Source of the DNA: Candidatus Woesearchaeota archaeon
Lineage (GTDB): Archaea; Nanobdellota; Nanobdellia; SCGC-AAA011-G17; JACQNH01
Direction of reading: 5' to 3'
Length of the DNA: 58,730 nt
NCBI GenBank assembly: GCA_023246445.1
Contig: JAHFIJ010000001.1
Span: forward strand, 1 to 58,730
The notes below the pieces were generated by a model. The model was not told where the DNA came from and did no database searches. It saw nothing but the letters and a program-made list of their open reading frames with translations. Position numbers and translations under genes: made by a program. Of this stretch, positions 1,403-54,584 are shown one piece after another (position 1 is the stretch's first letter; every line of letters starts with the position of its first letter).

Positions 1403-1987
1403 ATTACCCCTATAGACTGGTAAGATATCTTATATTTATAATGTTTTCTTTGCGAACTACTCAGCCCTAAGGGGCTGAGCGTCTGATGAAAGACGCCCTT
1501 GAGTTTCTTGCTTCATTGATACATAACTCGTAGACCTAGTTTCTAGTTCTGCTGTCAGGGATATCTCCACAAGCTTAAATTCCGACAGTTCCTGTCGTAT
1601 TGTTTTTTATTATGTTTATTTATTATTTACTTACCAGCACTTTCAGCCTTGTAAGTAAATAAACCTATTTTAAGAAACACAACTAATATTTAATCTTTTC
1701 TTTACACTGTTTAGTAACCTCTTAGTCTTTACAATATTTTCGTAATATTTACAGAAAAGTCATAATATTTACGAATTTTTGTCAAAAATACGCAATTCAT
1801 CTCAGACCTAAAAATGCTATGCTAAATTGTCCAGTGTCCAGTGATAGTTATTCGTTACGGAATTCCCCTCGTTCGTTTCGTTCTTTAGAAAATTGCCCCT
1901 TTCGTTAGCCACTGAAATTATTGAAACTAACATCAGAATTTAACATCCTCATTTTAGAGCTGCGGTCAAAAACATTAATTTATTCTT

Positions 1988-9600: not shown

Positions 9601-10448
9601 AAAGACTCATCAGCTACGCAAGGAGATTCACTGCATATTTTTGCAGCCGCATTATAATTTAATGGTTTCGTAGGGCATCCACCAAGATCTTCATGTGTAT
9701 AATCCACACCAGTATCAATAATTCCGATAGTTACTCCTTTTCCAGTTAAACATTCTTTTCCAGATTCCAAACAATTATTTCCATCAGCATCCAGCTTCCA
9801 TACCTGATCAGCCTTAATTAAAGGAACAGAATCAACTAAAAGAGCCTTAACCTCATAGTTTGGATAAACATTTTTAACAGAAGACAAAGTAGATAATTTT
9901 TTAGCTTCTACCTCAGAAATATCTAAAGCAAGACCATTAAAAGTGTTATAATACTCCCCCAGTATTATGCTCTTTTCTCCCCCGCCTACAGCATTTCCTG
10001 AAATTAAATTAGATTTACCTAGTTTATTTAAAATATCTTTCTTTGCATTTGCATGTTCCTGTATTAATTGAGATTTCGTAAGCACTGGCCTTTCCACAGT
10101 CTTAACTTCAGACGCTATTGTTGATTTCTTAGCTCTTGTAACTGCTACCCCCTGCTCTCTCTTTATTACAGCAGTTTCCACTGTCTCTGCTTTAGCTAAC
10201 AAAGGCTTACCTTTAAATTCTATAATATAACCCATTGATTTTAATTCTTCTTTAGCACCTTTTGTTTCATGTCGACTACCTCCCTTAACACCATTATCTT
10301 TTGTTTGTTGCTTAGCTTCTTTTTCAAGAACAACATCTCCTGTAACTGACTTACTTGAAAAATTTTGAAAATCTACGAAATAAATGAACAAAGAAATAAC
10401 CAAAAAAATAATAATTAAATATCTTAAAGCGTTCTTATTTTCAGCCAT
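6684..10448 (-). CDS. secreted multidomain subtilisin-like (S8) serine protease with duplicated beta-domain and four C-terminal Cys-rich modules
   Basis: 1254 aa with an N-terminal TM/signal anchor. Catalytic motifs: IIDTGVDYTHEDL (Asp), HGHGTHVAATAAG (His), AAGNSGY (Asn), SGTSMATPHVSG (Ser). Confidence 0.9.
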   Translation of the reverse strand: MAENKNALRYLIIIFLVISLFIYFVDFQNFSSKSVTGDVVLEKEAKQQTKDNGVKGGSRHETKGAKEELKSMGYIIEFKGKPLLAKAETVETAVIKREQGVAVTRAKKSTIASEVKTVERPVLTKSQLIQEHANAKKDILNKLGKSNLISGNAVGGGEKSIILGEYYNTFNGLALDISEVEAKKLSTLSSVKNVYPNYEVKALLVDSVPLIKADQVWKLDADGNNCLESGKECLTGKGVTIGIIDTGVDYTHEDLGGCPTKPLNYNAAAKICSESPCVADESLIGGRDNIDWGNEPNQPNTIDIRCKDGIAGVYKQDESIESISVENLNGGRFGQGDAVKVNVKVYCWGPYDKLNLVYQNEDKIKVLESVNCNGEQQFEEFNFNVTLDNVDGYHVIRASFVYGGGLSPCGIGPYDDNDDVVLEVNRPSIPQQPESGPCDKVIGGYDFVNDDTDAMDDHGHGTHVAATAAGKGKLNGIAPDAKIYAYKVLNSFGSGSFAGVMAGIERSMDPNQDGDFSDHLDIISLSLGAGCGRYGLFCGPDDPMSKTIDTVVDNGVVAIIAAGNSGYWGIGTIGTPGTARKAITVAASDKSDNVAPFSSRGPIIWNDEYGQTRYLMKPDVTAPGVDICAAQYYYWLEGLRECNPEIENHIAISGTSMATPHVSGLAALLLQKNPDLTPLQVKLVLKSKTVDLGKDVNTQGAGRINALDVVSFRGQPAIAKIDTNGVVDGNNLEIKGTASGRKFSSYKLELGLGENPIEWGELTRSDKAVENGVLFFAEKLKLKKGDINVLRLKVFNTDGETTEDRNVIIDSGIGILNVAKICSESPCVADESLIGGRDNIEGGNEPNQPNTIQPFFCKDGGAGYYMSDESIESISVENLNGGRFRPGDAVKVNVKVFCWGPYDNFNLVYRTEKRDFSTIKAVLCKGSGLEDFEFNFNLDNTDGYHVIRGVFEFVGDSADKCGNGWYDDNDDVVLDVQPPCSDSDNGKNYYESGRVITGDNKIDDLCLAKDNIYTIIEENYCENGEAKSENYQCEYGCALSENGVAIGKCNGDGSLMECIDSDGDNGFTKGKVKAMAITLSGKEERFSKTDFCKDNQVIEWTCNQNKFVFNTIDCPDGCEDGACKTVNVCTDEGNEPDVKQKVIFNGVSYYDVCSSDKKSVLEQKCKADNTRGTYSIGCENGCDKGACKPRTCSDIDGDNIFSYGVVTFNGVDYKDVCASSTKITEQLCKPDKTRATKTVICPNKKKCSNGKCLK
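7518..7994. repeat. intragenic repeat copy A (domain downstream of the S8 catalytic domain)
   Basis: Encodes KICSESPCVADESLIGGRDNIEGGNEPNQPNTI...DDNDDVVLDV. The run at 7935-7994 matches 9586-9645 at 59 of 60 nt. Confidence 0.85.
9176..9645. repeat. intragenic repeat copy B (domain inserted between catalytic Asp and His)
   Basis: Encodes KICSESPCVADESLIGGRDNIDWGNEPNQPNTI...DDNDDVVLEV. Long near-identical DNA runs are shared with 7518-7994. Confidence 0.85.
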
Positions 10449-10485: not shown

Positions 10486-10540
10486 AATCTTATTTATAAA
10501 TATTACTAACCACTAATAAATAATTAAAAAAAAGAAAAAG
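10486..10540 (-). promoter_or_regulatory. duplicated promoter block (copy 1) upstream of the S8 protease gene
   Basis: The ~55-nt block aatcttatttataaatattactaaccactaataaataattaaaaaaa(a)gaaaaag contains TATA-like TTTATAAATA on the minus strand, ~45 nt upstream of the ATG. A conserved GAGGATGAT Shine-Dalgarno follows. Confidence 0.7.
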
Positions 10541-10545
10541 GGAAG

Positions 10546-11937
10546 TTATCCTAATGCAAAGCTATTTGCCTTTACCCCACATACATTTTCAGCATCACAA
10601 TGCCCTTCACATGATTTAGCTGCGTATTGCAACCATAATGTAGCAGACACATGAGTCTGACTCTTTCCAGTCATTTGGATATTATCATTACATATCCAAC
10701 TAGCTTTAGTCACAGTAGTTATATTAGCTATTACAACTTTTGTGTCTAATAATCTTCCAAGCTTATCCAGGAATTTTACTTCAAAGTTTTTATTCCCACT
10801 AAGGCTACAACTAAATGATGCAAATCTAAATGCATGTTCTAATGTTCCGGCAGGGAAAGTCTTTGTTATATTACCATCCCCTCCATTATCATCTATGTAT
10901 TCATCAGTTCCGGGAGAAACTTCAGTATCATTGAATGCGCATCCTTGAGGTATATTTACACTAACAAAATGCTCAAATGGATTATTTTTTGCACTACCTC
11001 TGATCTCAAAGTTGATATTAGCCTCTAAATTTGTAACTGCACTTCCTGCACTGTTGGTTATTGCAACACCACTCAACTCAGGTCTTGTAGATACAGCCTT
11101 ACATTGCCCACCTTTATTAGTTGTTTCACATCCAGTCTGACATATTTGCGTCTCAAATTTAGTAGTTCCTTGATCACAAAAACGCTCTATCAAACCTCTA
11201 CCGGGGAACACAACATCCGAACATACATCTTGATCTCCACTACCATCTTGTGCAGTTGTTGATCCGGCTTCAAATGGATTTACTCCACCATCACTATCTA
11301 TACATCTACAATCAAACTCTGCTCTCTTTGTCCCCCCAATAACTGTAGTTGTTTTCTTATCATTACAATTACTGCTCCATATTATCTTTTCATTTTTCTT
11401 ACCCTTTATATTCTTAACAATACAACTCGTAAAATCAGTTGCATTGCTCTCACAACTCCCTTTTTTAGATACACATCTTTGTTGGACTATAGCTCCGGTA
11501 AATTTGCAGGTAACATCCTCTTTAATTTCAACTGTAGGTGTAGGTTTAGGTGCAGGTGCAGGTTTAGGTGCAGTTTGTTTTTTACATACAAAATTTGCAA
11601 CATTATCTTTGCCCATTTCAGTCGTATCGGAACGGACTACGCTGCATGTGCTTGACCATATAAGTTTTGCACCTTGTCTAAGATTAACATTTTTAATTAC
11701 ACAACTTTCAAAATCATTTCTCATGCTTCGACAAGAAAATCCATTAGCCATACTATTTCCATCCCAACATGTTTGTGAAGAAGTCGCACCATCAAAAACA
11801 CATTTTATTTCTACTGAAGTATCTACGGATTTTTTAACTAAATTACCAGTTAAATAATCAAGAAATCCTGCAGAAACAAAAGAACTCAAAACAACAACAC
11901 TTAAAATCGTAAAAAATAATATCATAATTTTTCTCAT
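10546..11937 (-). CDS. secreted Cys-rich protein with internal duplication and one CxDSDG module
   Basis: Signal peptide MRKIMILFFTILSVVVLSSFVSA. Two related Cys domains are separated by a PAPAPKPTP linker. Start moved to the ATG at 11937 because GGAGG lies 9 nt upstream of it; the track ORF extends to 11946. Confidence 0.6.
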   Translation of the reverse strand: MRKIMILFFTILSVVVLSSFVSAGFLDYLTGNLVKKSVDTSVEIKCVFDGATSSQTCWDGNSMANGFSCRSMRNDFESCVIKNVNLRQGAKLIWSSTCSVVRSDTTEMGKDNVANFVCKKQTAPKPAPAPKPTPTVEIKEDVTCKFTGAIVQQRCVSKKGSCESNATDFTSCIVKNIKGKKNEKIIWSSNCNDKKTTTVIGGTKRAEFDCRCIDSDGGVNPFEAGSTTAQDGSGDQDVCSDVVFPGRGLIERFCDQGTTKFETQICQTGCETTNKGGQCKAVSTRPELSGVAITNSAGSAVTNLEANINFEIRGSAKNNPFEHFVSVNIPQGCAFNDTEVSPGTDEYIDDNGGDGNITKTFPAGTLEHAFRFASFSCSLSGNKNFEVKFLDKLGRLLDTKVVIANITTVTKASWICNDNIQMTGKSQTHVSATLWLQYAAKSCEGHCDAENVCGVKANSFALG

Positions 11938-11994
11938 CAAAATCATCCTCCAATTTTTATTGTTAACTAATATACACCAAATATAGTATCAAAT

Positions 11995-12048
11995 AATCTT
12001 ATTTATAAATATTACTAACCACTAATAAATAATTAAAAAAAGAAAAAG
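11995..12048 (-). promoter_or_regulatory. duplicated promoter block (copy 2) upstream of the Cys-rich secreted protein gene
   Basis: Near-identical to 10486-10540, differing by one A in the A-run. Confidence 0.7.
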
Positions 12049-17524: not shown

Positions 17525-17674
17525 AACAATGCAGGCTGTCCCGCAATTACAAAAAATGTATACTGGCAACATCCCCCAATTGCTAATCTTACAAAAAAGG
17601 TCGTGCCAAAATGCAAAACAAGAGATGAGTGGGCAAAAATAATTATGTGACAGCCTGAGGAATTTAACGGAAAC
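17525..17674. repeat. 150-bp direct repeat, copy 1
   Basis: Aligns without gaps to 19542-19691 with about 16 mismatches. The central 107 nt has only 3 mismatches. Confidence 0.85.
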
Positions 17675-19541: not shown

Positions 19542-19691
19542 AACAGCGCAGGTTACCCCGCAATTACCAAAAATGTATACTGGCAACATCGCCCGATTGC
19601 TAATCTTACAAAAAAGGTCGTGCCAAAATGCAAAACAAGAGATGAGTGGGCAAAAATAATTATGGAACAGCCTGAATGTTTAAACGAAAAC
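19542..19691. repeat. 150-bp direct repeat, copy 2
   Basis: See 17525-17674. Lies between the secreted-protein gene stop and the dnaJ stop. Confidence 0.85.
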
Positions 19692-45405: not shown

Positions 45406-45538
45406 AGGGCCTACTGGGACTTTCAGCGTTTTTTCTTTCAACCTTTCTTTACGAGGTTTCTTTTTTAAAGAAAACTCTTTTGAACCCAGATCACCCGGTC
45501 CGAGGCCGGAGGCTCGATCCAGATTAAGCTATAGGCCC
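45406..45538 (-). tRNA. tRNA-Arg(UCG) candidate interrupted by a ~59-nt intron in the T-loop
   Basis: Minus strand: acceptor GGGCCUA/UAGGCCC, D arm GCUU-AAUCUGGAUC-GAGC, anticodon arm UCCGG-CCUCGGA-CCGGG. The T stem CUGGG...CCCAG is separated by 66 nt that begins UUCAAA. TATA TTTAAAAA lies ~25 nt upstream and a T-run follows. No encoded CCA. Confidence 0.8.
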
Positions 45539-45584
45539 TTCAAAAATCTTTAGGATTTAATCTTTTTAAATTCTTCTACCCTAA

Positions 45585-47498
45585 TTAAAATAACTCTTCA
45601 AAAAACCCTATAACCCTTAGATACCAGGGAACCCCACTAACATTAACATCAAACTCTTTATTTAAATTATATTTATTTCCTGATTCATCCTTAAATTCAA
45701 TCCCGATATCTGCATTCCCACTATATACTGTTCTGCCGCTTAAATTCCCCTTTATAACATTTATTCCATCAAACTCTTTAATATTGCTGAAATCAGCACC
45801 ATTTACCTTAATCTTTAAATCATTAATTTTTGTATTAGAGCTTAGAACAATATCAGTAGTTTTAATTTCATTATAATTTAAATTTTCAACATTGAATTCA
45901 GAGATCACAACACTAGGAATTTTATTTATTTTTATATCTAAATATTCTTTCTTAAAAAATTCATTATTCTCGGCAGTTATCAATAATCCATTAACATTAT
46001 TTTTAAAATCAACACTAAAATCAATATCTAAACTTTTATTCATATTAACTAATTTACAATCATCAATCAAACAAAAATTAACATTTTTATAACCTTCGTT
46101 GCTTGTAATTAAGCATTTAATCACTCCAGTTTCATTCCCTAAATAACTATTTTTATTTCCATTGCAACTAAAATTTAAAGAACTAAATTCACTTTTCTTT
46201 TCTCTCTTATCAACAGCTTTTAAAAACTCTAATGCCTTATCTAAGCTGTAATCTTCATAATCCTTAGCAGCCTGAATTAAAAAAATTGCTGAATCATCAA
46301 ACTGATCCTTAACCTTAACTTCACTGGAATAAATAAAATCTTCTTTTAAATTTCCTTTAAATTCTGCAATAAATACCAAATTTTTCTTTTCTTTTGGTTT
46401 TAATACTATTATTTTCTCTGAAACCCCATAAACACCAGGCGCATTAGCTAAATACAGCATTGCACTTAGATAAGAATCTTCTAAATTTTCTACTTCAACA
46501 ATTATTGGAGCATAACTTTCAAATTTAACTCTCTGAACAACAGATCTTGCACTAATCTTAATTGGGCTCTTAAAATCATCTTTTTTTTCGTTTATATAAT
46601 AAGCATTCAAATCTATCTTATCTAATTTTACTTCACCCCCGACAGAATGCCATCTATAATTTACACTGGCCTCTCCAGACCCTGCAGTATGCTGCAATTT
46701 CACATGGCTCGGATCTATCCATCCATATTGTCCAAATGTGACATCAAATGGCACCCAGCCATAACCGGGAAAATAAACCTCACTCCATCCATGATTTAAC
46801 CATTTATATCCTAAATTCGTGTAAACAACACCAGTAACAAATCTTGCAGGAATCCCTAAACTTCTCATTAAAGAGATAAATAAATTAGTTATCTCATCAC
46901 AAACACCCTCCCCATTCCTCAAAACTTCGCTGCTCTTAAAAACAGTTTCAGCATTTATCGTGCTTAGATTATATTTTATGTTTCTTCTCACCCATTCAGC
47001 AGTCTTAACAGCAATCAAAAACAAATCATCGCTATCCACTAAATCTCTTGCTGTATTTCTTATATCTTCATTTATGTCTATATATTTGCTTTCACCCAAA
47101 TACTCCTTATTACCATCAAAAACCACAGGATATTTAACCTTCTTATCTATCTTAAAAAGAATATTCTTATTTACTATTTCAGTCTTTAGATTAGCAGTCA
47201 CAATTTCAGATTTCGGATATCTCCATGCATATCTTATTAATCCTGGTTTTTCATTTTTTTCCCCTTCAGGATTCATTTCTAATTCAAAACTTTTTATTGT
47301 TTGCCTGTAATTAACCTCAGGTTTTAAAAACAAATCCGCAGTTAGATCATTCATTTTAGTTTTATCTAAATTATACAGCTTAAAATTTAAATTAATATCG
47401 AGTCCAATATTTAACTCATTAACATTGTTATAATTTTCAGCAGAAAAGACTAGCTGAGGCATTAAAACAACCAATACTAACAAGATTAACTTTCGCAC
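45585..47498 (-). CDS. secreted transglutaminase-like cysteine protease-fold protein
   Basis: 637 aa with a signal peptide. GEGVCDEITNLFISLMRSLGIPARFVTG (Cys), HGWSEVYF (His), GWVPFDVT (Asp). Confidence 0.8.
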   Translation of the reverse strand: MRKLILLVLVVLMPQLVFSAENYNNVNELNIGLDINLNFKLYNLDKTKMNDLTADLFLKPEVNYRQTIKSFELEMNPEGEKNEKPGLIRYAWRYPKSEIVTANLKTEIVNKNILFKIDKKVKYPVVFDGNKEYLGESKYIDINEDIRNTARDLVDSDDLFLIAVKTAEWVRRNIKYNLSTINAETVFKSSEVLRNGEGVCDEITNLFISLMRSLGIPARFVTGVVYTNLGYKWLNHGWSEVYFPGYGWVPFDVTFGQYGWIDPSHVKLQHTAGSGEASVNYRWHSVGGEVKLDKIDLNAYYINEKKDDFKSPIKISARSVVQRVKFESYAPIIVEVENLEDSYLSAMLYLANAPGVYGVSEKIIVLKPKEKKNLVFIAEFKGNLKEDFIYSSEVKVKDQFDDSAIFLIQAAKDYEDYSLDKALEFLKAVDKREKKSEFSSLNFSCNGNKNSYLGNETGVIKCLITSNEGYKNVNFCLIDDCKLVNMNKSLDIDFSVDFKNNVNGLLITAENNEFFKKEYLDIKINKIPSVVISEFNVENLNYNEIKTTDIVLSSNTKINDLKIKVNGADFSNIKEFDGINVIKGNLSGRTVYSGNADIGIEFKDESGNKYNLNKEFDVNVSGVPWYLRVIGFFEELF

Positions 47499-48532
47499 CC
47501 CTTATTCACCTCTTCTTTTACAACTTTAAAAAATTTATCCCAATCATCTTTCGCTATATTAAAGCCGCATGCATTCTTATGCCCCCCACCATAACTTCCA
47601 TTGCTTAAGCCTTCTAATGATTTACTAATCACCGGCTGCAAATTTATATTTCTGCTTCTCAAACTCCCTTTTACAAACTCCCCTGTATCTCTCCCAACTA
47701 ATATAACTTCCATCCCTGTTGAATATTTTAAAAACTGCGCCAGCTCAGAAGAAAAACTTATCTTCCCCGAAGGATAAATAAACCACAATAAATTTTTTTC
47801 TTTCTTCATATTGTCTAACGCTTTTTTTAATAATTCCTCATACTGCTCGTTTATTCTTAAAAATTTATTCTTTAGCTGTTCGCATCTATCTTCAAAATCT
47901 AAAATATCATAAGGGCTTTTAACCTGCTCCAAAACATTAGCTATGTCCATTACATCTCTGACTTTTGATTTCAATAAAAAACTTACTATCTTTATTATTC
48001 TCCCTAATTTGCTGTTATAGATTAAATCCTCTTCACCCTTAAAATCATTAAACAATTCTTTATATTCTTTTCTGACATCTTCTAGAAAATCAGGTATATA
48101 ATAATCAGCCACGCACCCAATTAATGCCAGCCATTTATCTCTATTAACACATTTATAGCTCCAGTATGTTGTAGCGCTTCTTTCATTTGGATTTTTAAAT
48201 TTCGGATTAAAATATTTCATATTTTCAATTTCAATTATAGGATGATGATCAATCCATATTACCGGAGCTTTACAGTTATCAATGAATTCCTGTTCTATTA
48301 TAGGTTTATCTAAAACAATTATAAGATCAGGATTATACTTATTTGCTATTAGAGCATATTTTTTTCCAACTTTAGGGGAATCTTTCACAACTCTCCCATT
48401 TCCTTTTTTACAATATCTTTTAAATAATAAATAACTGCACAACCCATCACAATCTTCATCAAATAAAAAAAATGGATTTTCACTTTTATCCAATAGTTTC
48501 TTGACTTCATTTAATTCTATTATCTTAGCCAT
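47486..48532 (-). CDS. DHH/DHHA1-family phosphoesterase (RecJ/NrnA-like)
   Basis: 348 aa. DEDCDGLCS, IWIDHHPI and GGGHKNACGF motifs. Confidence 0.75.
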   Translation of the reverse strand: MAKIIELNEVKKLLDKSENPFFLFDEDCDGLCSYLLFKRYCKKGNGRVVKDSPKVGKKYALIANKYNPDLIIVLDKPIIEQEFIDNCKAPVIWIDHHPIIEIENMKYFNPKFKNPNERSATTYWSYKCVNRDKWLALIGCVADYYIPDFLEDVRKEYKELFNDFKGEEDLIYNSKLGRIIKIVSFLLKSKVRDVMDIANVLEQVKSPYDILDFEDRCEQLKNKFLRINEQYEELLKKALDNMKKEKNLLWFIYPSGKISFSSELAQFLKYSTGMEVILVGRDTGEFVKGSLRSRNINLQPVISKSLEGLSNGSYGGGHKNACGFNIAKDDWDKFFKVVKEEVNKGCES

Positions 48533-48578
48533 TAAAAATTTAATTAAAAATTGAGTTTAAAATAGTTTTGATTGAATT

Positions 48579-49148
48579 TTAACGTGCCTTTTGTTTATTT
48601 GCTCTTAAACTGGGTCTTATCTTCTCAGCACCCTTCCCTTTATTCCTTAACCCTCTTGATTTTCTCCCGGCAGAAGTTTTTCCCCTGTAAACTCTCCCTC
48701 TTGACTCATTTATCCATTCCATCCCTTTATACTTTGAAACCTTAACTCTGTCTGCTAGTATAATCTCAAACCAGTTATAAATTCCATCCTGAATAACAAA
48801 ATAACTCCCCAATACTTCACAATTAGGATATTTATTATTTACTCTCTCCTCTGCAATCCACTGATAATTTTTGCTTACGCTTCTATGAACATAATAATTT
48901 CTTGATTTTCTGCCTCTTTTTAATTGTGGCCTCTGTTTTCCGCCTCTTTTCAATCTTATTCTTACAACTAAATATCCCTCTTTAGCCTTATAACCTAAAG
49001 CTCTAGCTCGGTCTAATCTAGTCGGGTTATCAATTCTTAAAAAAACAGGCTGTCTCCTGAACTTCATTAATCTCTCCTTATATATCTGAGGATTTAATTC
49101 TCTTAAATTCTGCCAGTTTTCTCTGATAAAGGAATATGCGCTTTTCAT
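48579..49148 (-). CDS. rpl15e: 50S ribosomal protein L15e
   Basis: MKSAYSFIRENWQN...RLDRARALGYKAKEGYLVVRIRLKRGG. Start set at the second Met (49148) because the TATA-like TTATAAAT overlaps the first ATG (49172), which suggests a leaderless mRNA. Confidence 0.9.
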   Translation of the reverse strand: MKSAYSFIRENWQNLRELNPQIYKERLMKFRRQPVFLRIDNPTRLDRARALGYKAKEGYLVVRIRLKRGGKQRPQLKRGRKSRNYYVHRSVSKNYQWIAEERVNNKYPNCEVLGSYFVIQDGIYNWFEIILADRVKVSKYKGMEWINESRGRVYRGKTSAGRKSRGLRNKGKGAEKIRPSLRANKQKAR

Positions 49149-49196
49149 AGAGAGTCTAGCTTGAAAAATCATTTATAAGCCTTTCTTTTAAATCTT

Positions 49197-50360
49197 TTAA
49201 AATAGTATTATCAGTAAATTTCCAATCCCTGCTAATATAAACCCTAATTTATAGCTCAATGTATAATAAACAGCTACCAACACTAAAAGCTGGCCAAAAC
49301 CCAATGCCATCTGTCTAAATGCTAAATATTCTAATTTATTTTTATGATAGCTAACTCGATCATATACTAATGCAGTAAATGGCCCTTCAAATAACATAGA
49401 CATTAAGCCAGAATATAAAGAAACTAAAGTTACTCCAGCAATAGTATTAAAGAAATATCTAAAAAACCAGGACAAGCTATTCAAGATGCTCCCTAGATTA
49501 ATAAAAACTTTTTTTCCTGTTTTATTACTCACTCTTCCAGTTGCATAAGAAACTAATGCTCTTAATATTCCAGATAAACTAGCCAACCCCCCTATAGCAA
49601 CATAATTTGTCAATACTAAAAATAAAAACAAAGGCCATAGTATTCCTTCTCCAATGCCAAAAGCTCCATAACCAAAGAACCCTAAAAAATCTCTAAAATG
49701 TTTTAAATTAAACACATCACCGAAATTAAATTTAAATCTTTCATTCAAGTCTTTAGTCATATATAATGGCACAGCAGATATTATCAATAAGCAACCCACC
49801 AACACAAACAAAGATAAAAACCCTAAATAATAAACAATTAAACCGCCGATAATAGGCCCTAAAATTCCAATTAATATCATCATAACATTTGCAATAGAAA
49901 CTTCCTCGCTTCTATGATTTTTATCAGTTGAATTTACAAAAATACTATGATAGCTCAGCCAAAAAAACCCATCTGCAAATCCGCTCAATACTGCAACATT
50001 TATTAATAATGATGGATTAAATTTCATCAGATAAATTAGAGCATATAATAAAATATAAAACGGCTGTATCATTACCATCATGTGTCTCGCACCGACTTTT
50101 GAACAAAATAAAGCACCAAATATCGCACTTATAACATAAACAATTACGGAAATTATATAAAAAAATAAAACCTGGCTTAAACTCAAACCAACCTCTTTGA
50201 TTAAATATAAAGGAACGAATAATGCAATTAAGCTCAAAGCAAAAGTCCTTAACACAATACTCAAATAAAATTGTTTTAAATCCTTGTTAGCCTTGAAGTT
50301 TATAAAATGCCAGTGATGTGCATGCAGATGATTGCCGTATATATGTCCGAATATTCTCAT
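49197..50360 (-). CDS. MFS-type transporter
   Basis: 387 aa, ~11-12 TM helices. The loop GRVSNKTGKK resembles MFS motif A. Confidence 0.65.
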   Translation of the reverse strand: MRIFGHIYGNHLHAHHWHFINFKANKDLKQFYLSIVLRTFALSLIALFVPLYLIKEVGLSLSQVLFFYIISVIVYVISAIFGALFCSKVGARHMMVMIQPFYILLYALIYLMKFNPSLLINVAVLSGFADGFFWLSYHSIFVNSTDKNHRSEEVSIANVMMILIGILGPIIGGLIVYYLGFLSLFVLVGCLLIISAVPLYMTKDLNERFKFNFGDVFNLKHFRDFLGFFGYGAFGIGEGILWPLFLFLVLTNYVAIGGLASLSGILRALVSYATGRVSNKTGKKVFINLGSILNSLSWFFRYFFNTIAGVTLVSLYSGLMSMLFEGPFTALVYDRVSYHKNKLEYLAFRQMALGFGQLLVLVAVYYTLSYKLGFILAGIGNLLIILF

Positions 50361-50469
50361 TTAATTTCACCTTTTTTGTTTTAAATAATAATAGTAGTAT
50401 AAAAATCTAATGTATGAACTAAAGAACAATAAAGCTTTTAAATAAAAACTATTCTAAAGTGGTATCAAA

Positions 50470-50658
50470 ATGGCAATTAAAAATGCAATTCAAATCATAA
50501 TTGGATTAATTATTCTGGCAGTCTTAGCTATCATAGGAACTACTTTTCAATATATAAGAATCAAAGCATTTGCCTTTTTAGTTGGGGGGATATTCTGGGC
50601 TATTGTATTAATTGCTCTATTCCTGATTTTTGTAGGTATAAACGAGTTAAGAAATTAA
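50470..50658 (+). CDS. small two-TM membrane protein
   Basis: 62 aa and hydrophobic. Its stop codon is the first 3 nt of the 149-bp repeat. Confidence 0.4.
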   Translation: MAIKNAIQIIIGLIILAVLAIIGTTFQYIRIKAFAFLVGGIFWAIVLIALFLIFVGINELRN

Positions 50659-50804
50659 AAACAATTTTAAACTCAGATATCTTATTATTATTCAATGAAA
50701 ATCCCAACTTCTAAATATGATAAAGCCTTCCTATTGAATAAAGCATTAAAAAATATTAAAGAATTCTTGCCCAGAATAATATCTAATTCATTTTCAGGTT
50801 CTTC
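50656..50804 (+). repeat. 149-bp perfect direct repeat, copy 1
   Basis: Identical by eye to 51534-51682. Contains 39 nt of upstream sequence plus the first ~37 codons of the nre-like gene. Confidence 0.95.
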
Positions 50805-50844
50805 CAATCAAAAAGAAAGGTATGAACTTACTCTAAAAAAGTAA
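50695..50844 (+). pseudogene. truncated 5' duplicate of the nre-like gene
   Basis: MKIPTSKYDKAFLLNKALKNIKEFLPRIISNSFSGSS is identical to the N-terminus of 51573-52766. It then diverges and stops after 12 more codons. Confidence 0.7.
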
Positions 50845-50886
50845 TGTTTATATAGTTAAACAGTTTTACAGTTAAACGAGGTAAAA

Positions 50887-51147
50887 ATGGAAAAAGAGTT
50901 ATTAAAAATGAGCCCTAAAGGCCAATTGGTAATCCCACAGGAAATAAGAGAAATGGAGTCCTTCAAAGAAGGGGATAGATTCATTGCTGTCCCTGTTAAA
51001 GAGGGGGTATTATTTAAAAAAGTCAAAATCCCTAATATAAAAATAGAGTTTGAAAAGATAGCTCGGGAAATAGAAGCACATTTCAAAGAGAAAAAAGTAA
51101 CTCGGGAAGACGTTGTGGGAGCAATTAAATGGGCCAGAAAAAGATAG
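50887..51147 (+). CDS. AbrB/SpoVT-family antitoxin
   Basis: 86 aa. MSPKGQLVIPQEIREMESFKEGDRFIAVPVKEGVLF swapped-hairpin motif. Confidence 0.75.
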   Translation: MEKELLKMSPKGQLVIPQEIREMESFKEGDRFIAVPVKEGVLFKKVKIPNIKIEFEKIAREIEAHFKEKKVTREDVVGAIKWARKR

Positions 51148-51536
51148 TTTTAGATACAAATATCTTAATCTCGGCTTGCGGATGGGAAGGTAAACCAAAA
51201 GAATTATTTAAAAAAATATTAAACCACGAATATGAATTAATTATTTCAATAGAACAGATAGACGAACTAAAAAGAGTTTTAGATTATCCAAGATTTGATT
51301 TTACCGAGGATCAAAAATCAAAGTTTTTAGTTATATTAACATTAATTTCAACAATTATCCCACTCAACCAGTCAATCAATATTATAAAAGAAGATCCTGA
51401 TGACAACATAATACTGGAAACGGCAATAGAATCCGAAGCCGAATTTCTTATTTCAGGTGACCCGCATCTTCTTAACCTAAAAGAATATAAAACTATAAAA
51501 ATAATGACAGTTTCGGATTTCTTAAACCAACAATAA
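51129..51536 (+). CDS. PIN-domain toxin
   Basis: 135 aa. KIVLDTNILISA, ...DPDDNIILETA..., ISGDPHLL. Overlaps the antitoxin gene by 19 nt. Confidence 0.8.
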   Translation: MGQKKIVLDTNILISACGWEGKPKELFKKILNHEYELIISIEQIDELKRVLDYPRFDFTEDQKSKFLVILTLISTIIPLNQSINIIKEDPDDNIILETAIESEAEFLISGDPHLLNLKEYKTIKIMTVSDFLNQQ

Positions 51537-51682
51537 AAACAATTTTAAACTCAGATATCTTATTATTATTCAATGAAAATCCCAACTTCTAAATATGATA
51601 AAGCCTTCCTATTGAATAAAGCATTAAAAAATATTAAAGAATTCTTGCCCAGAATAATATCTAATTCATTTTCAGGTTCTTC
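51534..51682 (+). repeat. 149-bp perfect direct repeat, copy 2
   Basis: See 50656-50804. It begins with the PIN gene stop codon. Confidence 0.95.
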
Positions 51683-52766
51683 ACCGCCAGAAATTTTCAT
51701 TGGTCAACACGGTTATCCCCAAGTCTTTACAGGAATATTAGCTCCTTTAGGGCATTTAGAAGATGCGCAAAAACTAAGTTCTCCAGAAGATTGGTTTAAG
51801 AATAATTTAGATATTCAACAAATTTTACAGCTAAGATCTTCTTTAATATATTCCAGATTCAAAACACAGATTAAACCGCAAACAAATAAATTACTGGAAG
51901 TTTTACAAGAAACCTCAATGGCAAAGAAACCCACAGACATAGAATTTTTCCTTAAAAAACCCCCTAAGCCTAAGATAAATCTAGACAACTTCGTAAACCC
52001 ATTAGCAAATCCAGCCTCTTTACAAAAAGCTAAACTGCAGGAAAATCCATCAGTAGACACAATAGTAGAAAAAGTTGTTTCAGATACAGATCTAAAAGCA
52101 GTAGATGCAATTTCAAAATTATATAAATCCTCAAAAACTTCCTCGGAGATTATTAAATTATTATCTTCAGGTTTATTAGGAATAAAAATTCAGAGAAAAT
52201 TGGTTCCAACTAAATGGTCAATCACTGCAGTAGATGATACAATTTCAAAACAATTATTATCTCAAATTAAAAATTATTCTTGGATTAATGAATATTTATT
52301 ATTTCATCACGAATATTCAGGGAATCATTATGAGATTATTTTATTGCCTAAAGAATGGGGTTTTGAAGTTATAGAAGCTGAATCCAGAAATTCTTATCCC
52401 ACTCAAAATAACATTTTAATATTTTCAGATTATGAAGATTTTTATGGAAGAAAAGATTATGCCTCAAATGTAACTGGTGCTTACTACTCAAATAAAATTG
52501 CAATCTGCGAATACTTGTCTAAAATCAAAAAACAGGCATCAGTTTTAGTTTTAAGAGAAGTTAAGCCTGAATATTTTGCTCCATTAGGTGTTGGGATCTT
52601 AAGAGAAACAACAAGATTCGCATTTACCAAATCACCTGAAAAATTCTTAACTTTAAAAGAAGCATTGAATAAAGCACAAACAAGACTAACTATAGACATT
52701 AATAAATTAATTGAAAGTTCTAAACTACTAAAGTCCTTGCATCAAACCAAATTAACTATGTTTTAA
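51573..52766 (+). CDS. Nre-family (archaeal DNA repair-associated) protein, tentative
   Basis: 397 aa. SGSSPPEIFIGQHGYPQVFTGILAP resembles the Nre N-terminal domain signature as I recall it. Not verified. Confidence 0.5.
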   Translation: MKIPTSKYDKAFLLNKALKNIKEFLPRIISNSFSGSSPPEIFIGQHGYPQVFTGILAPLGHLEDAQKLSSPEDWFKNNLDIQQILQLRSSLIYSRFKTQIKPQTNKLLEVLQETSMAKKPTDIEFFLKKPPKPKINLDNFVNPLANPASLQKAKLQENPSVDTIVEKVVSDTDLKAVDAISKLYKSSKTSSEIIKLLSSGLLGIKIQRKLVPTKWSITAVDDTISKQLLSQIKNYSWINEYLLFHHEYSGNHYEIILLPKEWGFEVIEAESRNSYPTQNNILIFSDYEDFYGRKDYASNVTGAYYSNKIAICEYLSKIKKQASVLVLREVKPEYFAPLGVGILRETTRFAFTKSPEKFLTLKEALNKAQTRLTIDINKLIESSKLLKSLHQTKLTMF

Positions 52767-52807
52767 AAACAACAATATTTTTAAACCTTTACTTCCTTAA
52801 CTTAATA

Positions 52808-52915
52808 ATGTTCATAGACGAAGATTTAGAAGAAGAAAATTTAGAGGAACTTAATTTTGAAGAGTTATTAAAAGAAAGACCTAAAAAACAAATATTACCC
52901 GCAATAGCATCCTAA
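52808..52915 (+). CDS. possible 35-aa acidic leader peptide upstream of the M50 protease
   Basis: MFIDEDLEEENLEELNFEELLKERPKKQILPAIAS. The stop lies 1 nt before the M50 ATG. Very short, so weakly supported. Confidence 0.25.
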   Translation: MFIDEDLEEENLEELNFEELLKERPKKQILPAIAS

Positions 52916-52916
52916 A

Positions 52917-53456
52917 ATGGCAATTCTAACCTTAAAGGAAATATTTGACTTAATAATTATGACTATAGCTTTAGGCTATATCTTTTCAGGCTATATCCCA
53001 CAGCCAAAAACAATTTACAAAGTTTTAAAGCCGACATTTAATTTCCAAGTTTTAAAATACTCTTGTTTGATTGCAGCTCCAGCTGTTGTATTACATGAAT
53101 TAGCACATAAGTTTACAGCATTAGCCTTTGGGATTCCTGCCACATTCAAAATGTTTCCTTTTGGTTTAATCTTGGGTGTTGTTTTAAAATTATTAAATTC
53201 TCCCTTATTGATAATTGCTCCAGGCTATGTCCAATTGCCAGCTATATCCTCTACACTAACAAGAGTTACAGCTTTAGCAGGCCCATTAACAAACCTTTTG
53301 ATATTCCTTATTGCTTTAATAGTTATTAAAAAAGTAAAATTATCAAACAAAGCATTTATTTTATGGTCTTTAACAAAACAAATTAATTTAATATTGTTTA
53401 TTTTTAATATGATTCCGATTTCTCCTTTAGACGGTTCAAAAGTATTCTTCGGATAA
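52917..53456 (+). CDS. M50-family (site-2 protease-like) membrane metalloprotease, minimal form
   Basis: 179 aa. HELAHKF (HExxH) in a TM helix and NMIPISPLDGSKV (NxxPxxxLDG). Confidence 0.75.
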   Translation: MAILTLKEIFDLIIMTIALGYIFSGYIPQPKTIYKVLKPTFNFQVLKYSCLIAAPAVVLHELAHKFTALAFGIPATFKMFPFGLILGVVLKLLNSPLLIIAPGYVQLPAISSTLTRVTALAGPLTNLLIFLIALIVIKKVKLSNKAFILWSLTKQINLILFIFNMIPISPLDGSKVFFG

Positions 53457-53471
53457 CTATCCCACCCCAAA

Positions 53472-53903
53472 TTATTTCTTATTCAACACATATTGTTTTA
53501 ATACCAATAATAATGTTCCTGATTCACTAATATTGCCAATAGACCCATTATCACCAAAAGCATTAGCAGCACATCCTCCATCTCCCAAAGATACAGGGTT
53601 ATTAAATTTAATTTGAAGTTCTCTAGCCAAATCACTAAAAACTTTTTCAGGTTTGCTTAAATCAAGTCCCTTAACACGGGCAACTAAAACCAAATTACCC
53701 TGATGAGCAGGATAATTATTATTTCTTCCACTTATCTCTATTCTAATATCAGAAATACCAATCTCTTCCTCAAAAAAAAGGCCTCTAAGATTATAAAGCC
53801 CAGCATATAGTCTTCTAAATTTATCATACTTCAAACCCTGTTGCTCAATAAGCCCTTTCAACAAACTTAAAGAACTAACCCTATTATATTTCGTCGACAC
53901 CAT
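53472..53903 (-). CDS. hypothetical protein
   Basis: 143-aa ORF with no recognisable motif. Confidence 0.4.
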   Translation of the reverse strand: MVSTKYNRVSSLSLLKGLIEQQGLKYDKFRRLYAGLYNLRGLFFEEEIGISDIRIEISGRNNNYPAHQGNLVLVARVKGLDLSKPEKVFSDLARELQIKFNNPVSLGDGGCAANAFGDNGSIGNISESGTLLLVLKQYVLNKK

Positions 53904-53960
53904 AAAGAATAAAATTATTTAAAGCTATAAAAACCTTTCTTAAATCAATTATTACTACTA

Positions 53961-54584
53961 TTATCTTCTCTTCTTTTTATTTTTAACAGCCTTTTTAGTC
54001 TTCTTAACAATTTTTTTAATCTTCTTTGAAGTTTTAGCAATCTTTTTCTCAAAATCTTTTTGTATCTCTAATTTTTCTTCAGTTAATTCATTTTGTATTT
54101 TTTTAATTTCTTCTCTAATTTTAATTATCCCTGGAATATTGCTCTCCTGCACCATTAATTTTCCGCAATCAGGGCATTTAAAATTACATTCCAATGCATC
54201 CTCACTGCTGACTCTTTCACATTCATCAGGGCATATATAATAATTTATTTTTTCTTCTATTTTCAACTGGCTCTTTAATTCATCTAATTTTTTTTGATTA
54301 ACCTCATGCTTCAATTTAAAAGCAGTTTCTTCTTCAAAATTCCAGAAATAAACATACCAGCCCTTTTTTTTATCTTTCTTGCGTATATTAGTTACCAAAC
54401 CATAATTGCTTAAGCTGTATAATAAGCTTCTTATTTGATTTATAGTTAATTTTAATTTTTCAGCTAATTTAACCTCACTCACGTTTTTCTTACCCCTTAA
54501 TAAATTAACAATAGCAACCGCATCTTTTCTAACTACTTGGGATATTAATTCATTTAAGACCTCTTCAGAAAGTTTCATGACCAT
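53961..54584 (-). CDS. tfe: transcription factor E alpha subunit (TFE/TFIIE-alpha homologue)
   Basis: 207 aa. N-terminal winged helix, Zn ribbon CPDEC...CPDCG, Lys-rich tail. Confidence 0.8.
   Translation of the reverse strand: MVMKLSEEVLNELISQVVRKDAVAIVNLLRGKKNVSEVKLAEKLKLTINQIRSLLYSLSNYGLVTNIRKKDKKKGWYVYFWNFEEETAFKLKHEVNQKKLDELKSQLKIEEKINYYICPDECERVSSEDALECNFKCPDCGKLMVQESNIPGIIKIREEIKKIQNELTEEKLEIQKDFEKKIAKTSKKIKKIVKKTKKAVKNKKKRR

What the first reader, a model, noticed from the sequence alone, without database searches (positions are those of the whole stretch)
50656..51682. Perfect 149-bp direct repeats flank an AbrB-PIN toxin-antitoxin cassette and duplicate the 5' end of the nre-like gene
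Positions 50656-50804 and 51534-51682 look identical base for base. Each copy starts with a TAA stop codon, of the 62-aa membrane protein gene and of the PIN gene respectively. Each contains 39 nt of upstream sequence and the first ~37 codons of the nre-like gene. Copy 1 therefore creates a 49-aa truncated pseudo-start (50695-50844), while copy 2 heads the intact 397-aa gene. The 729 bp in between carry only the AbrB-type antitoxin and the PIN toxin. This is the footprint expected from Campbell-type single-crossover integration of a small circular element that carried 149 bp of target homology. A duplication-mediated insertion is also possible. Either way it is direct evidence that a TA cassette was recently mobile without any integrase or transposase in sight. 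The perfect identity implies a very recent event or an assembly artefact.
Basis: seen in the sequence. Interest (0 to 1): 0.7.

Follow-up and report, generated by a model that had tools for sequence, protein, structure and literature searches.

The report
Young repeat around an old toxin-antitoxin cassette
A perfect 149-base direct repeat really does bracket a small toxin-antitoxin gene pair in this Woesearchaeota contig, but relatives show the gene pair has sat at this exact spot for a long time, so only the repeat is recent and the finding is a fairly ordinary local rearrangement rather than a freshly mobile element.

Summary
50656-50804 and 51534-51682 are identical (149/149). They flank 729 nt that carry only an AbrB-like antitoxin gene and a PIN_3 toxin gene. 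They duplicate the nreA promoter plus 36 2/3 codons.

A second assembly (ENA ERZ27297570) breaks into three contigs exactly at this repeat with 141-nt overlaps. Both novel junctions therefore exist in reads. The linear order and copy number rest on how an assembler resolved a self-loop.

The interpretation of a recently mobile cassette is not supported. Three diverged relatives (L004, L005, L093) have the same PIN gene, or a 3' remnant of it, abutting the same nreA promoter motif. Cassette and flanking genes are about equally diverged (about 78% nt, synonymous sites saturated), and dN/dS of 0.05-0.14 shows purifying selection. The module is old and vertically inherited at this variable site. 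L002 and L003 have an empty site.

What is young is the left repeat copy and its junction (50804|50805). R differs 23-30% between lineages but 0% within the window.

Best reading: a recent homologous or illegitimate recombination event (insertion-duplication type) on a resident cassette. The main rival is an old duplication kept identical by gene conversion. Interest is low.

The parts
50470..50658 (+). 62-aa membrane protein gene (left flank). Its TAA stop codon is the first 3 nt of repeat copy 1.
   Evidence: One search lists the ORF. Orthologues lie next to nreA in L002, L003, L004 and L093. The junction with R1 has the same structure as in the empty-site outgroup L003.
50656..50804 (+). 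Repeat copy 1 (R1): a duplicate of the nreA promoter plus its first 36 2/3 codons. It is continuous with the ancestral left flank.
   Evidence: Searches show 149/149 identity with 51534-51682. ERZ27297570 contig A ends at R[141].
50657..50672 (+). Conserved AAAAACAATTTTAAAC motif in R1, a putative archaeal BRE/TATA promoter element. The same motif lies at 51535-51550 in R2.
   Evidence: The motif is nearly invariant in six lineages, about 23 nt upstream of the nreA ATG. An inverted copy lies at the DHH gene promoter (pair I3). The promoter role is inferred, not tested.
50695..50844 (+). 49-aa pseudo-ORF: the first 36 NreA codons fused to 13 unrelated codons. It ends inside the abrB promoter.
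   Evidence: It is annotated only in the NCBI record.
50805..50835 (.). 31-nt junction segment of unknown origin between R1 and the conserved module. The novel junction is 50804|50805.
   Evidence: It has no homologue in L004 or in other AbrB-PIN loci. Homology to those loci starts at 50836.
50836..50877 (+). abrB promoter/operator (TTTATATA box followed by repeated AGTTAAAC). This is the conserved left end of the AbrB-PIN module.
   Evidence: 88% identical to L004 1611-1652. It is conserved in more than 15 unrelated AbrB-PIN loci, partly on both strands.
50887..51147 (+). 86-aa AbrB/MazE/SpoVT-type antitoxin gene. It overlaps the PIN gene by 19 nt.
   Evidence: matches below cut-off. 188 homologues of about 86 aa, followed by a PIN_3 gene in the loci examined. 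dN/dS 0.05 against L004.
51129..51536 (+). 135-aa PIN_3 (TIGR00305) toxin gene. It is full length and its stop codon is the first 3 nt of repeat copy 2.
   Evidence: Homologues are 134-137 aa long. dN/dS 0.08-0.14.
51534..51682 (+). Repeat copy 2 (R2): the native promoter and 5' end of the intact nreA gene.
   Evidence: The junction between the PIN 3' end and R is shared with L004, L005 and L093.
51573..52766 (+). nreA, 397 aa, intact.
   Evidence: Nre_N and Nre_C cover the full length. It is 78-83% identical in amino acids to L002, L003, L004, L005 and L093.

Best explanation
The AbrB-PIN pair is an old, vertically inherited, functional type II toxin-antitoxin module. It sits in a variable intergenic spot between a 62-aa membrane protein gene and the nreA promoter in a clade of Woesearchaeota.

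In the window's lineage a recent recombination event placed a second, identical copy of the nreA promoter plus 5' end (R, 149 nt) on the left side of the resident module, giving A-R-cassette-R-nreA.

The event needs only two ordinary steps, in either order:
1. An illegitimate join of R position 149 to the sequence 31 nt upstream of the abrB promoter. This could be circularisation of a cassette+R fragment, or a tandem duplication of cassette+R.
2. A homologous exchange within R. This could be single-crossover re-integration into a cassette-less allele, or a deletion from the short promoter remnant left of the module into the first R.

Consequences (inferred): nreA keeps its own promoter and stays intact. 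Copy 1 is a decoy start giving a 49-aa ORF, and its promoter may read into the TA operon. The perfect repeats make the cassette excisable by homologous recombination, a loss that the toxin-antitoxin pair itself would penalise.

Shown: the repeat, the junctions, the residency and purifying selection of the cassette, and the youth of the repeat identity. Inferred: the recombination pathway and the functional consequences.
For: - The repeat and gene content are confirmed.
- The junctions are seen in a second assembly with exact k=141 break points.
- Synteny is conserved, with empty sites in L002 and L003.
- L004 and L005 have orthologous AbrB-PIN abutting the same promoter motif. L093 keeps only a PIN 3' remnant there.
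- Cassette and flanks are equally diverged. Window vs L004 is 77.7-78.5% against 75.7-80.6% nt. L004 vs L005 is PIN 81.1% against nreA 82.0%.
- pS is 0.58-0.71 for cassette genes against 0.61-0.82 for flanks. dN/dS is 0.05-0.14.
- R is only 70-77% identical between lineages but 100% within the window.
- The window's A|R1 junction matches the outgroup's empty site, and L004 keeps only 13 nt of R at that position.
- No second cassette copy, transposase, tRNA or Rfam RNA family match was found nearby.
- Experimental precedent: single crossover of small circles leaves 109-950-bp duplications of the homologous segment (PMC3240628).
Against: - No reads were available, so coverage, read-pair links and the single-traversal path of the loop are unverified.
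- Only one relative (L004) shows a left junction, so the ancestral length of the left repeat (13 nt or 149 nt) is not established.
- No cassette-less allele or circular form was found at species level.
- The proposed pathway needs a rare illegitimate join whose source sequence (the 31 nt at 50805-50835) could not be traced.
- Synonymous sites are saturated, so co-divergence of cassette and flanks is approximate.
Confidence: 0.55

Rival explanations
1. Old duplication with concerted evolution. The original insertion of the module in the common ancestor was itself a Campbell-type event that duplicated R. In the window's lineage the two copies have been kept identical by repeated gene conversion, and the TA module penalises the competing pop-out deletion. 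In L004 the left copy was eroded to 13 nt by a later insertion or deletion, and in L093 and L002 the region was remodelled.
For: - One event explains both the pristine A|R1 junction, which matches L003, and the ancient PIN|R2 junction.
- L004 retains exactly the first 13 nt of R at the orthologous position.
- The site has clearly been remodelled repeatedly.
Against: - It requires uninterrupted homogenisation of a 149-nt non-functional copy while everything else diverged by about 22%.
- No relative shows a longer or diverged left copy.
- L002's empty site is not the clean product expected from recombination between R1 and R2. About 20 unrelated nt lie between the 62-aa stop codon and R.
Confidence: 0.2
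2. The linear contig path is not the whole truth. The graph is a self-loop on a collapsed repeat. The sample could hold A-R-B chromosomes plus an 878-bp circle, tandem arrays A-(R-C)n-R-B, or a mixture of these. The assembler simply traversed the loop once.
For: - ERZ27297570 contigs break exactly at R. The cassette contig starts and ends in R.
- The overlaps show k=141, and R (149 nt) exceeds it, so no k-mer of that graph can link A to C or A to B across R; a 150-nt read (length assumed, not known) could not either.
- Perfect 149-nt direct repeats are expected to generate pop-out circles.
Against: - An 878-bp circle encodes no replication function and would be too rare to assemble unless it were continually produced.
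- The NCBI contig (58,730 nt) was resolved through the loop, which usually needs read-pair support. This point is an inference.
- Every alternative still requires the real R-to-cassette junction, so the rearrangement itself is not an artefact.
Confidence: 0.12
3. One reading: a small circular TA element carrying 149 nt of target homology recently arrived from elsewhere and integrated by single crossover, so the cassette is newly acquired at this site.
For: - The topology of the repeats fits this event.
- AbrB-PIN modules of this family do occur at unrelated chromosomal sites in other Woesearchaeota, Pacearchaeota and Nanoarchaeota, so the family moves over evolutionary time.
Against: - Orthologous cassettes or remnants lie at the identical junction in L004, L005 and L093.
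- The cassette is no more similar to any known copy than the flanks are to their orthologues.
- The nearest PIN elsewhere is 65% identical or less. Nothing above 62% was found in JGI metagenomes, and only 35% matches were found in viral contigs.
Confidence: 0.07

Closest known systems
Insertion-duplication by single-crossover (Campbell-type) integration of a small circular DNA
   Same: - Identical direct repeats of the homologous segment flank the insert.
- One copy is joined to the left flank and the other to the right flank.
- The target gene is restored intact.
- The repeat length of 149 nt lies within the experimentally observed range of 109-950 bp (PMC3240628).
   Different: - The 'insert' is not foreign. 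Its orthologues were already at this site in relatives.
- No circular donor, vector backbone or cassette-less allele was observed at species level.
Homology-facilitated illegitimate recombination and displacement arrays (Rhs, CDI and T6SS effector-immunity loci)
   Same: - One homologous anchor plus one illegitimate join.
- Toxin/immunity-type modules sit at a hot spot next to a conserved gene.
- Partial duplicates and orphan remnants accumulate (PMC5361080). Here these are the PIN 3' remnant in L093 and the orphan VapB-like gene in L004.
   Different: - The duplicated anchor here is the 5' end and promoter of an unrelated housekeeping repair gene, not part of the toxin gene.
- No array of displaced modules is present in the window.
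- DNA uptake or exchange in these archaea has not been demonstrated.
Type II toxin-antitoxin module with an AbrB/SpoVT-fold antitoxin and a PIN_3 (TIGR00305) toxin, VapBC-like
   Same: - A small antitoxin gene overlaps the downstream PIN gene by 19 nt.
- PIN_3/TIGR00305 scores well above the curated cut-off.
- A conserved promoter with a repeated operator-like motif lies upstream.
- Both genes are under purifying selection.
   Different: - The antitoxin's AbrB match is below the curated cut-offs.
- No activity was tested.
- The family is annotated only as 'putative' in NCBIfam.
Transposon or IS target-site duplication
   Same: Direct repeats of target sequence flank an inserted segment.
   Different: - 149 nt is far longer than known target-site duplications.
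- No transposase, terminal inverted repeats or second copy is present.

Membership tests
Type II TA module, AbrB-fold antitoxin + PIN_3 toxin | PIN-domain toxin | tested here: met
   Pfam PIN_3 1.7e-16 (61.5 bits against a cut-off of 27). NCBIfam TIGR00305 74.4 bits against a cut-off of 29.15. The protein is 135 aa, within the 134-137 aa range of homologues.
Type II TA module, AbrB-fold antitoxin + PIN_3 toxin | Small DNA-binding antitoxin gene immediately upstream and translationally coupled to the toxin gene | tested here: met
   abrB 50887-51147 overlaps PIN 51129-51536 by 19 nt. The same 86-aa + PIN pairing is found in L004, L088 and many other loci.
Type II TA module, AbrB-fold antitoxin + PIN_3 toxin | Antitoxin belongs to the AbrB/MazE/SpoVT family | tested here: inconclusive
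   Pfam MazE_antitoxin 22.2 bits against a cut-off of 24.7. TIGR01439 22.6 bits against 28.3. Some homologues are named AbrB/MazE/SpoVT by NCBI.
Type II TA module, AbrB-fold antitoxin + PIN_3 toxin | Toxicity of the PIN protein and its neutralisation by the antitoxin | not testable with these tools
   This needs expression experiments. Only purifying selection (dN/dS 0.05-0.14) speaks for function.
Campbell-type single-crossover insertion-duplication | Identical direct repeats of the target segment flank the insert, with each copy contiguous with one native flank | tested here: met
   149/149 identity. The A|R1 junction matches the L003 empty site, and R2|B matches all relatives.
Campbell-type single-crossover insertion-duplication | The inserted DNA is new to the site (arrived with the event) | tested here: not met
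   Orthologous cassettes or remnants lie at the same junction in L004, L005 and L093, with divergence equal to the flanks.
Campbell-type single-crossover insertion-duplication | A circular donor carrying the R-to-cassette junction, or an empty allele in the same population | not testable with these tools
   No reads were available. The k=141 graph is compatible with either state but cannot distinguish them.
Transposable element with target-site duplication | Transposase gene and terminal inverted repeats | tested here: not met
   No inverted repeats lie at 50805/51533. The IS240-family transposase of L093 has no homologue in the window. Only two ORFs lie in the 729 nt.
Site-specific integrative element or integron cassette | Integrase nearby, tRNA or att target, attC-like palindrome | tested here: not met
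   No tRNA gene in the window. No RNA family match in 46-56 kb. The neighbours scanned with Pfam (47486-53903) are housekeeping genes, and L093's TFIIE_alpha gene (TFE) has a 207-aa ORF at the syntenic position in the window; none is a recombinase. No palindrome lies at the cassette ends.
Assembly artefact (spurious duplication) | The junctions are absent from other assemblies, or the repeat length equals the k-mer overlap of naively concatenated contigs | tested here: not met
   ERZ27297570 contig C begins with R[9-149] and ends with R[1-141], so both junctions are present. R is 149 nt, not 141 nt. Whether that assembly used the same reads is unknown.

The most novel reading that the evidence does not exclude
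The nreA promoter plus 5' segment acts as a recurrent, recombinase-free homology anchor. Through it, small TA-type cassettes are excised as circles and recaptured by the host's homologous recombination machinery. This would be an integrase-independent cassette exchange site in DPANN archaea, with the TA module policing its own retention. The several states of the site (empty, AbrB-PIN with a 149-nt repeat, VapB-like + AbrB-PIN with a 13-nt repeat, and a 99-aa ORF with a PIN remnant) would be snapshots of that turnover.
Probability: 0.06. Interest if true: 0.55.

Novelty: new member of a known kind. Interest (0 to 1): 0.2.

Why it matters
It matters little beyond this locus. The case documents, with comparative evidence, that a chromosomal TA module in a reduced DPANN-type genome can be a long-term resident of a variable intergenic spot. 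It also shows that a striking perfect repeat around such a module need not mean recent acquisition.

The case is useful as a caution. Repeats just longer than the assembler's k appear as self-loops in the assembly graph. The contig path through them should be verified before mobility is inferred.

If the duplicated allele is real and single-copy, it gives a natural substrate for measuring homologous pop-out and the stabilising effect of a TA pair in an uncultivated archaeon.

Tried and rejected
- **Transposon, IS or integron explanations.** No terminal inverted repeats, transposase, integrase, tRNA or attC-like structure was found.
- **Naive contig-concatenation artefact.** Rejected because R is 149 nt rather than the 141-nt overlap, and both junctions are present in a second assembly.
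- **Recent horizontal arrival.** The PIN and AbrB searches of 5.8 billion proteins, JGI metagenomes and IMG/VR found no copy closer than the syntenic orthologues. PIN 76% and 74% are L004 and L005. The next PIN hits are 65% or less, and the next AbrB hits 73% or less; the AbrB hits looked up sit in other contexts.
- **Remnants of R[14-149] left of the cassette in L004.** A local alignment found only the 13-nt start of R.
- **Origin of the 31 nt at 50805-50835.** No match was found in the window or in any of the 94 loci.
- **A second left junction from the L005 strain.** Its AbrB could not be assigned to any hit.
- **L002's 20-nt spacer as a PIN 3' remnant.** Only the last 6 nt (TTTGAA) match L005, which is too weak to use.
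- **The 12-mer AAAAACAATTTT as a unique duplication marker.** It is enriched (4 observed against 0.33 expected in the window; 2 against 0.04 in L004). It is also part of a general promoter consensus, so the L004 copy is a probable rather than certain remnant.
- **Contig DNA of ERZ27297570.** The DNA could not be fetched because the file is too large, so only gene coordinates were used.
Full report
**1. Observation**

Positions 50656-50804 and 51534-51682 are identical over 149 nt, with a spacing of 878 nt. They are the only copies in the window and its longest perfect repeat.

- Each copy begins with a TAA that terminates the upstream ORF. These are the 62-aa membrane protein gene (50470-50658) and the PIN gene (51129-51536).
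- An ATG lies 39 nt into each copy.
- Copy 1 yields a 49-aa ORF (50695-50844). Copy 2 heads an intact 397-aa NreA gene (Nre_N 1.8e-82, Nre_C 2e-31).
- The 729 nt between the copies hold an 86-aa AbrB/MazE-like gene. Its family matches are just under the curated cut-offs.
- They also hold a 135-aa PIN_3/TIGR00305 gene that overlaps the AbrB-like gene by 19 nt.

The contig is chromosomal Woesearchaeota DNA. It carries L15e, a DHH-family gene and an MFS gene, plus ORFs at the positions that encode TFE and an alanyl-tRNA synthetase-like protein in matching contigs. Its closest genomes are Woesearchaeota MAGs. The window is a complete 58,730-nt NCBI contig.

**2. Is it an assembly artefact?**

Exact-protein look-ups found the same genes in another assembly, ENA ERZ27297570, split over three contigs. 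Converted to window coordinates:
- Contig A covers 1601-50796 and ends at R position 141.
- Contig C (1,011 nt) covers 50664-51674. This is R[9-149] + 729 nt + R[1-141].
- Contig B covers 51542-54362 and starts at R position 9.

This is what a k=141 de Bruijn assembler emits when R is a collapsed two-in/two-out node and the cassette is a self-loop on it. Three conclusions follow:
- The two copies are identical in the reads. Any difference would have separated the paths.
- The junctions R149-to-50805 and PIN-stop-to-R are supported by sequence and are not an artefact of contig joining. R is 149 nt, not the 141-nt overlap.
- The order A-R-C-R-B and a loop count of one are an assembler's resolution. 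No 141-mer can bridge the 149-nt repeat, and a 150-nt read (a length I assume, not one I could check) could not either.

A free 878-bp circle plus A-R-B, or tandem copies, would give the same graph. I consider these alternatives unlikely but cannot exclude them without reads.

A Logan contig from run SRR14366766 (L001) matches window 45458-50437 with one mismatch. The population therefore exists in at least one identifiable run.

**3. Relatives**

Synteny (DHH, L15e, MFS, 62-aa gene, nreA, M50 peptidase, 143-aa gene, TFE) is conserved in L002, L003 and L093/L094, and partly in L004. The intergenic spot between the 62-aa gene and nreA has several states.

| Locus | State of the site between the 62-aa gene and nreA |
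|---|---|
| L003 (outgroup, NreA 79%) | Empty. The 62-aa stop codon TAA is the first three bases of TAAAAACAATTTTATAC, exactly as at the window's A\|R1 junction. |
| L002 | Empty, with about 20 unrelated nt between the stop codon and the motif. |
| L004 | 62-aa gene, 18 nt, TAAAAACAATTTT (13 nt of R), an orphan VapB-like RHH gene on the minus strand, then abrB and PIN. These are followed by CAAAAACAATTTTAAAC and nreA. |
| L005 | 3' end of abrB, then PIN, TAAAAACAAATTTAAAC and nreA. The contig starts inside abrB, so the left junction is not seen. |
| L093/L094 | 62-aa gene, an unrelated 99-aa ORF, then an orphan PIN 3' remnant (FIISGDSHLFELKNYNRIKIVTVSDFLDSEQKQF*). These are followed by CAAAAACAATTTTAAAC and nreA. 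|

The PIN-to-nreA-promoter junction is therefore shared by four diverged lineages. It must predate their split. L002, whose flanks are about 90% identical to L004, has lost the module.

**4. Age of the cassette**

Nucleotide identities:

| Pair | Cassette genes | Flanking genes |
|---|---|---|
| Window vs L004 | abrB 78.5%, PIN 77.7% | 62-aa gene 78.8%, MFS 80.6%, nreA 75.7-77.8% |
| L004 vs L005 | PIN 81.1% | nreA 82.0% |
| Window vs L005 | PIN 76.7% | nreA 78.6% |

Synonymous differences are saturated in both classes. pS is 0.58-0.71 for cassette genes and 0.61-0.82 for flanks. dN/dS is 0.05 for abrB and 0.08-0.14 for PIN. The module has therefore co-diverged with its neighbours under purifying selection.

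No closer copy exists anywhere searched:
- The next PIN hits are 65% identical or less.
- The next AbrB hits are 73% or less; those looked up (P0123-P0125) lie in unrelated contexts, for example between topoisomerase I and seryl-tRNA synthetase in L088.
- JGI metagenomes gave 62% at best, and IMG/VR gave only 35% matches.

Family members at other chromosomal sites share the abrB promoter/operator (window 50836-50877). This defines the transferable module as about 50836-51536. The 31 nt at 50805-50835 lie outside the module and have no traceable origin.

**5. What is young**

R is 70-77% identical between lineages but 100% identical between the two copies in the window. If the left copy dated from the lineage split without homogenisation, more than 30 differences would be expected in 149 nt. 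None is seen.

Either the left copy was created recently, or it was recently overwritten by gene conversion. L004 retains only the first 13 nt of R at the orthologous left position and nothing further. That 12-mer is strongly enriched, but it is also part of a general promoter consensus.

R begins exactly at a nearly invariant AAAAACAATTTTAAAC motif about 23 nt upstream of the ATG. I read this as the BRE/TATA of a leaderless or short-leader nreA transcript. That reading is an inference from general knowledge of archaeal promoters and was not tested.

**6. Mechanism**

The structure needs one illegitimate join (R149 to 50805) and one exchange within R or its 13-nt remnant. Equivalent routes are:
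- **Circle and re-integration.** A cassette+R fragment circularises and integrates by single crossover into a cassette-less allele.
- **Tandem duplication and deletion.** Cassette+R duplicates in tandem. A deletion from the left promoter remnant into the first R follows.
- **Unequal exchange.** An empty allele and a filled allele recombine unequally.

All are standard recombination outcomes. Single-crossover integration of small circles leaving 109-950-bp duplications has been observed experimentally (PMC3240628). Anchor-plus-illegitimate-end events are the proposed origin of orphan arrays at toxin/immunity hot spots (PMC5361080).

The main rival is that the ancestral insertion already duplicated R and that gene conversion has kept the copies identical here. 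This explains the pristine A|R1 junction economically. It requires sustained homogenisation, and no relative supports it. I give the recent event 0.55, old duplication with conversion 0.20, an unresolved loop (circle, tandem or mixture) 0.12, and genuine recent arrival of the cassette 0.07.

**7. Consequences (inferred)**

- nreA is intact and keeps its promoter.
- Copy 1 is a decoy promoter and start. Its transcript would run into the autoregulated abrB-PIN operon.
- The perfect repeats allow precise pop-out of the cassette. Post-segregational toxicity would select against that loss. This is established TA biology and was not tested here.

**8. Comparison and novelty**

The TA pair is an ordinary member of a widespread archaeal AbrB-like + PIN_3 family. 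The repeat is an insertion-duplication footprint of a known kind.

Transposon, integron and integrase-mediated models fail their defining features. Campbell-type integration fits in topology but fails the feature 'the insert is new to the site'.

The finding is real. Its headline interpretation, a TA cassette caught in recent movement, is not supported. Interest is low (0.2). The remaining novel possibility is a recombinase-free cassette exchange site anchored on the nreA promoter. I rate it at about 6%.

Noticed in passing
window 10486-10538 and 11995-12047: A 53-nt direct repeat, 96% identical, lies immediately upstream of two adjacent minus-strand genes for large secreted or Cys-rich proteins (6684-10448, 1254 aa; 10546-11946, 466 aa). 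It looks like a duplicated promoter/leader segment. This is a second case in the contig of a promoter-containing repeat bracketing a gene.
   Followed up: partly
window 7508-7994 vs 9164-9644: Three collinear repeat blocks (74-94% identical, spacing about 1650 nt) lie inside the 1254-aa ORF. They indicate an internal domain duplication.
   Followed up: no
window 17525-17674 vs 19542-19691: A 150-nt direct repeat at 89% identity with spacing 2017 nt. Its gene content was not examined.
   Followed up: no
window 48552-48574; L002 2861-2880: An inverted copy of the nreA promoter motif (TAAAAACAATTTTAAACTCA) lies between the DHH and L15e genes. In L002 it matches R[1-20] exactly on the minus strand. 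The motif therefore appears to be a general strong BRE/TATA-type consensus in this clade.
   Followed up: partly
L004 1110-1675: The same intergenic site in a relative also holds an orphan VapB-like RHH antitoxin gene (1179-1409, minus strand; NCBIfam VapB 29.6 bits, below cut-off). It has no partner toxin, and degenerate ORFs lie nearby. The site behaves as a small TA graveyard or hot spot.
   Followed up: partly
L093 4557-4977 and 8934-9803: In another relative the cassette is replaced by a 99-aa Cys-rich ORF with no family match, leaving a 3' remnant of the PIN gene (about 100 nt of recognisable coding sequence). An IS240-family DDE transposase lies about 2.7 kb downstream of nreA in that genome. 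It has no counterpart in the window.
   Followed up: partly
window 1601 and 54362: The ERZ27297570 contigs that match the window also end at these two positions. This implies further graph branch points (repeats or strain variation) that the NCBI contig reads through.
   Followed up: no
ERZ27297570, 2,651-nt contig (protein P0125): The same sample holds a second AbrB homologue (70% identical) next to a TrmB-family regulator gene. It is either a paralogous module in this genome or one from a co-occurring relative.
   Followed up: no
L088 115-3798: The 1227-aa topoisomerase I gene next to an AbrB-PIN module in another Woesearchaeota MAG carries an intein (Pfam Intein_splicing between the Topoisom_bac segments).
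   Followed up: no
window 52743-52766: NreA ends with QTKLTMF, which resembles a PCNA-interacting (PIP-box) motif. It is conserved as Q..KLT.F in the relatives. The resemblance is from memory and was not tested.
   Followed up: no
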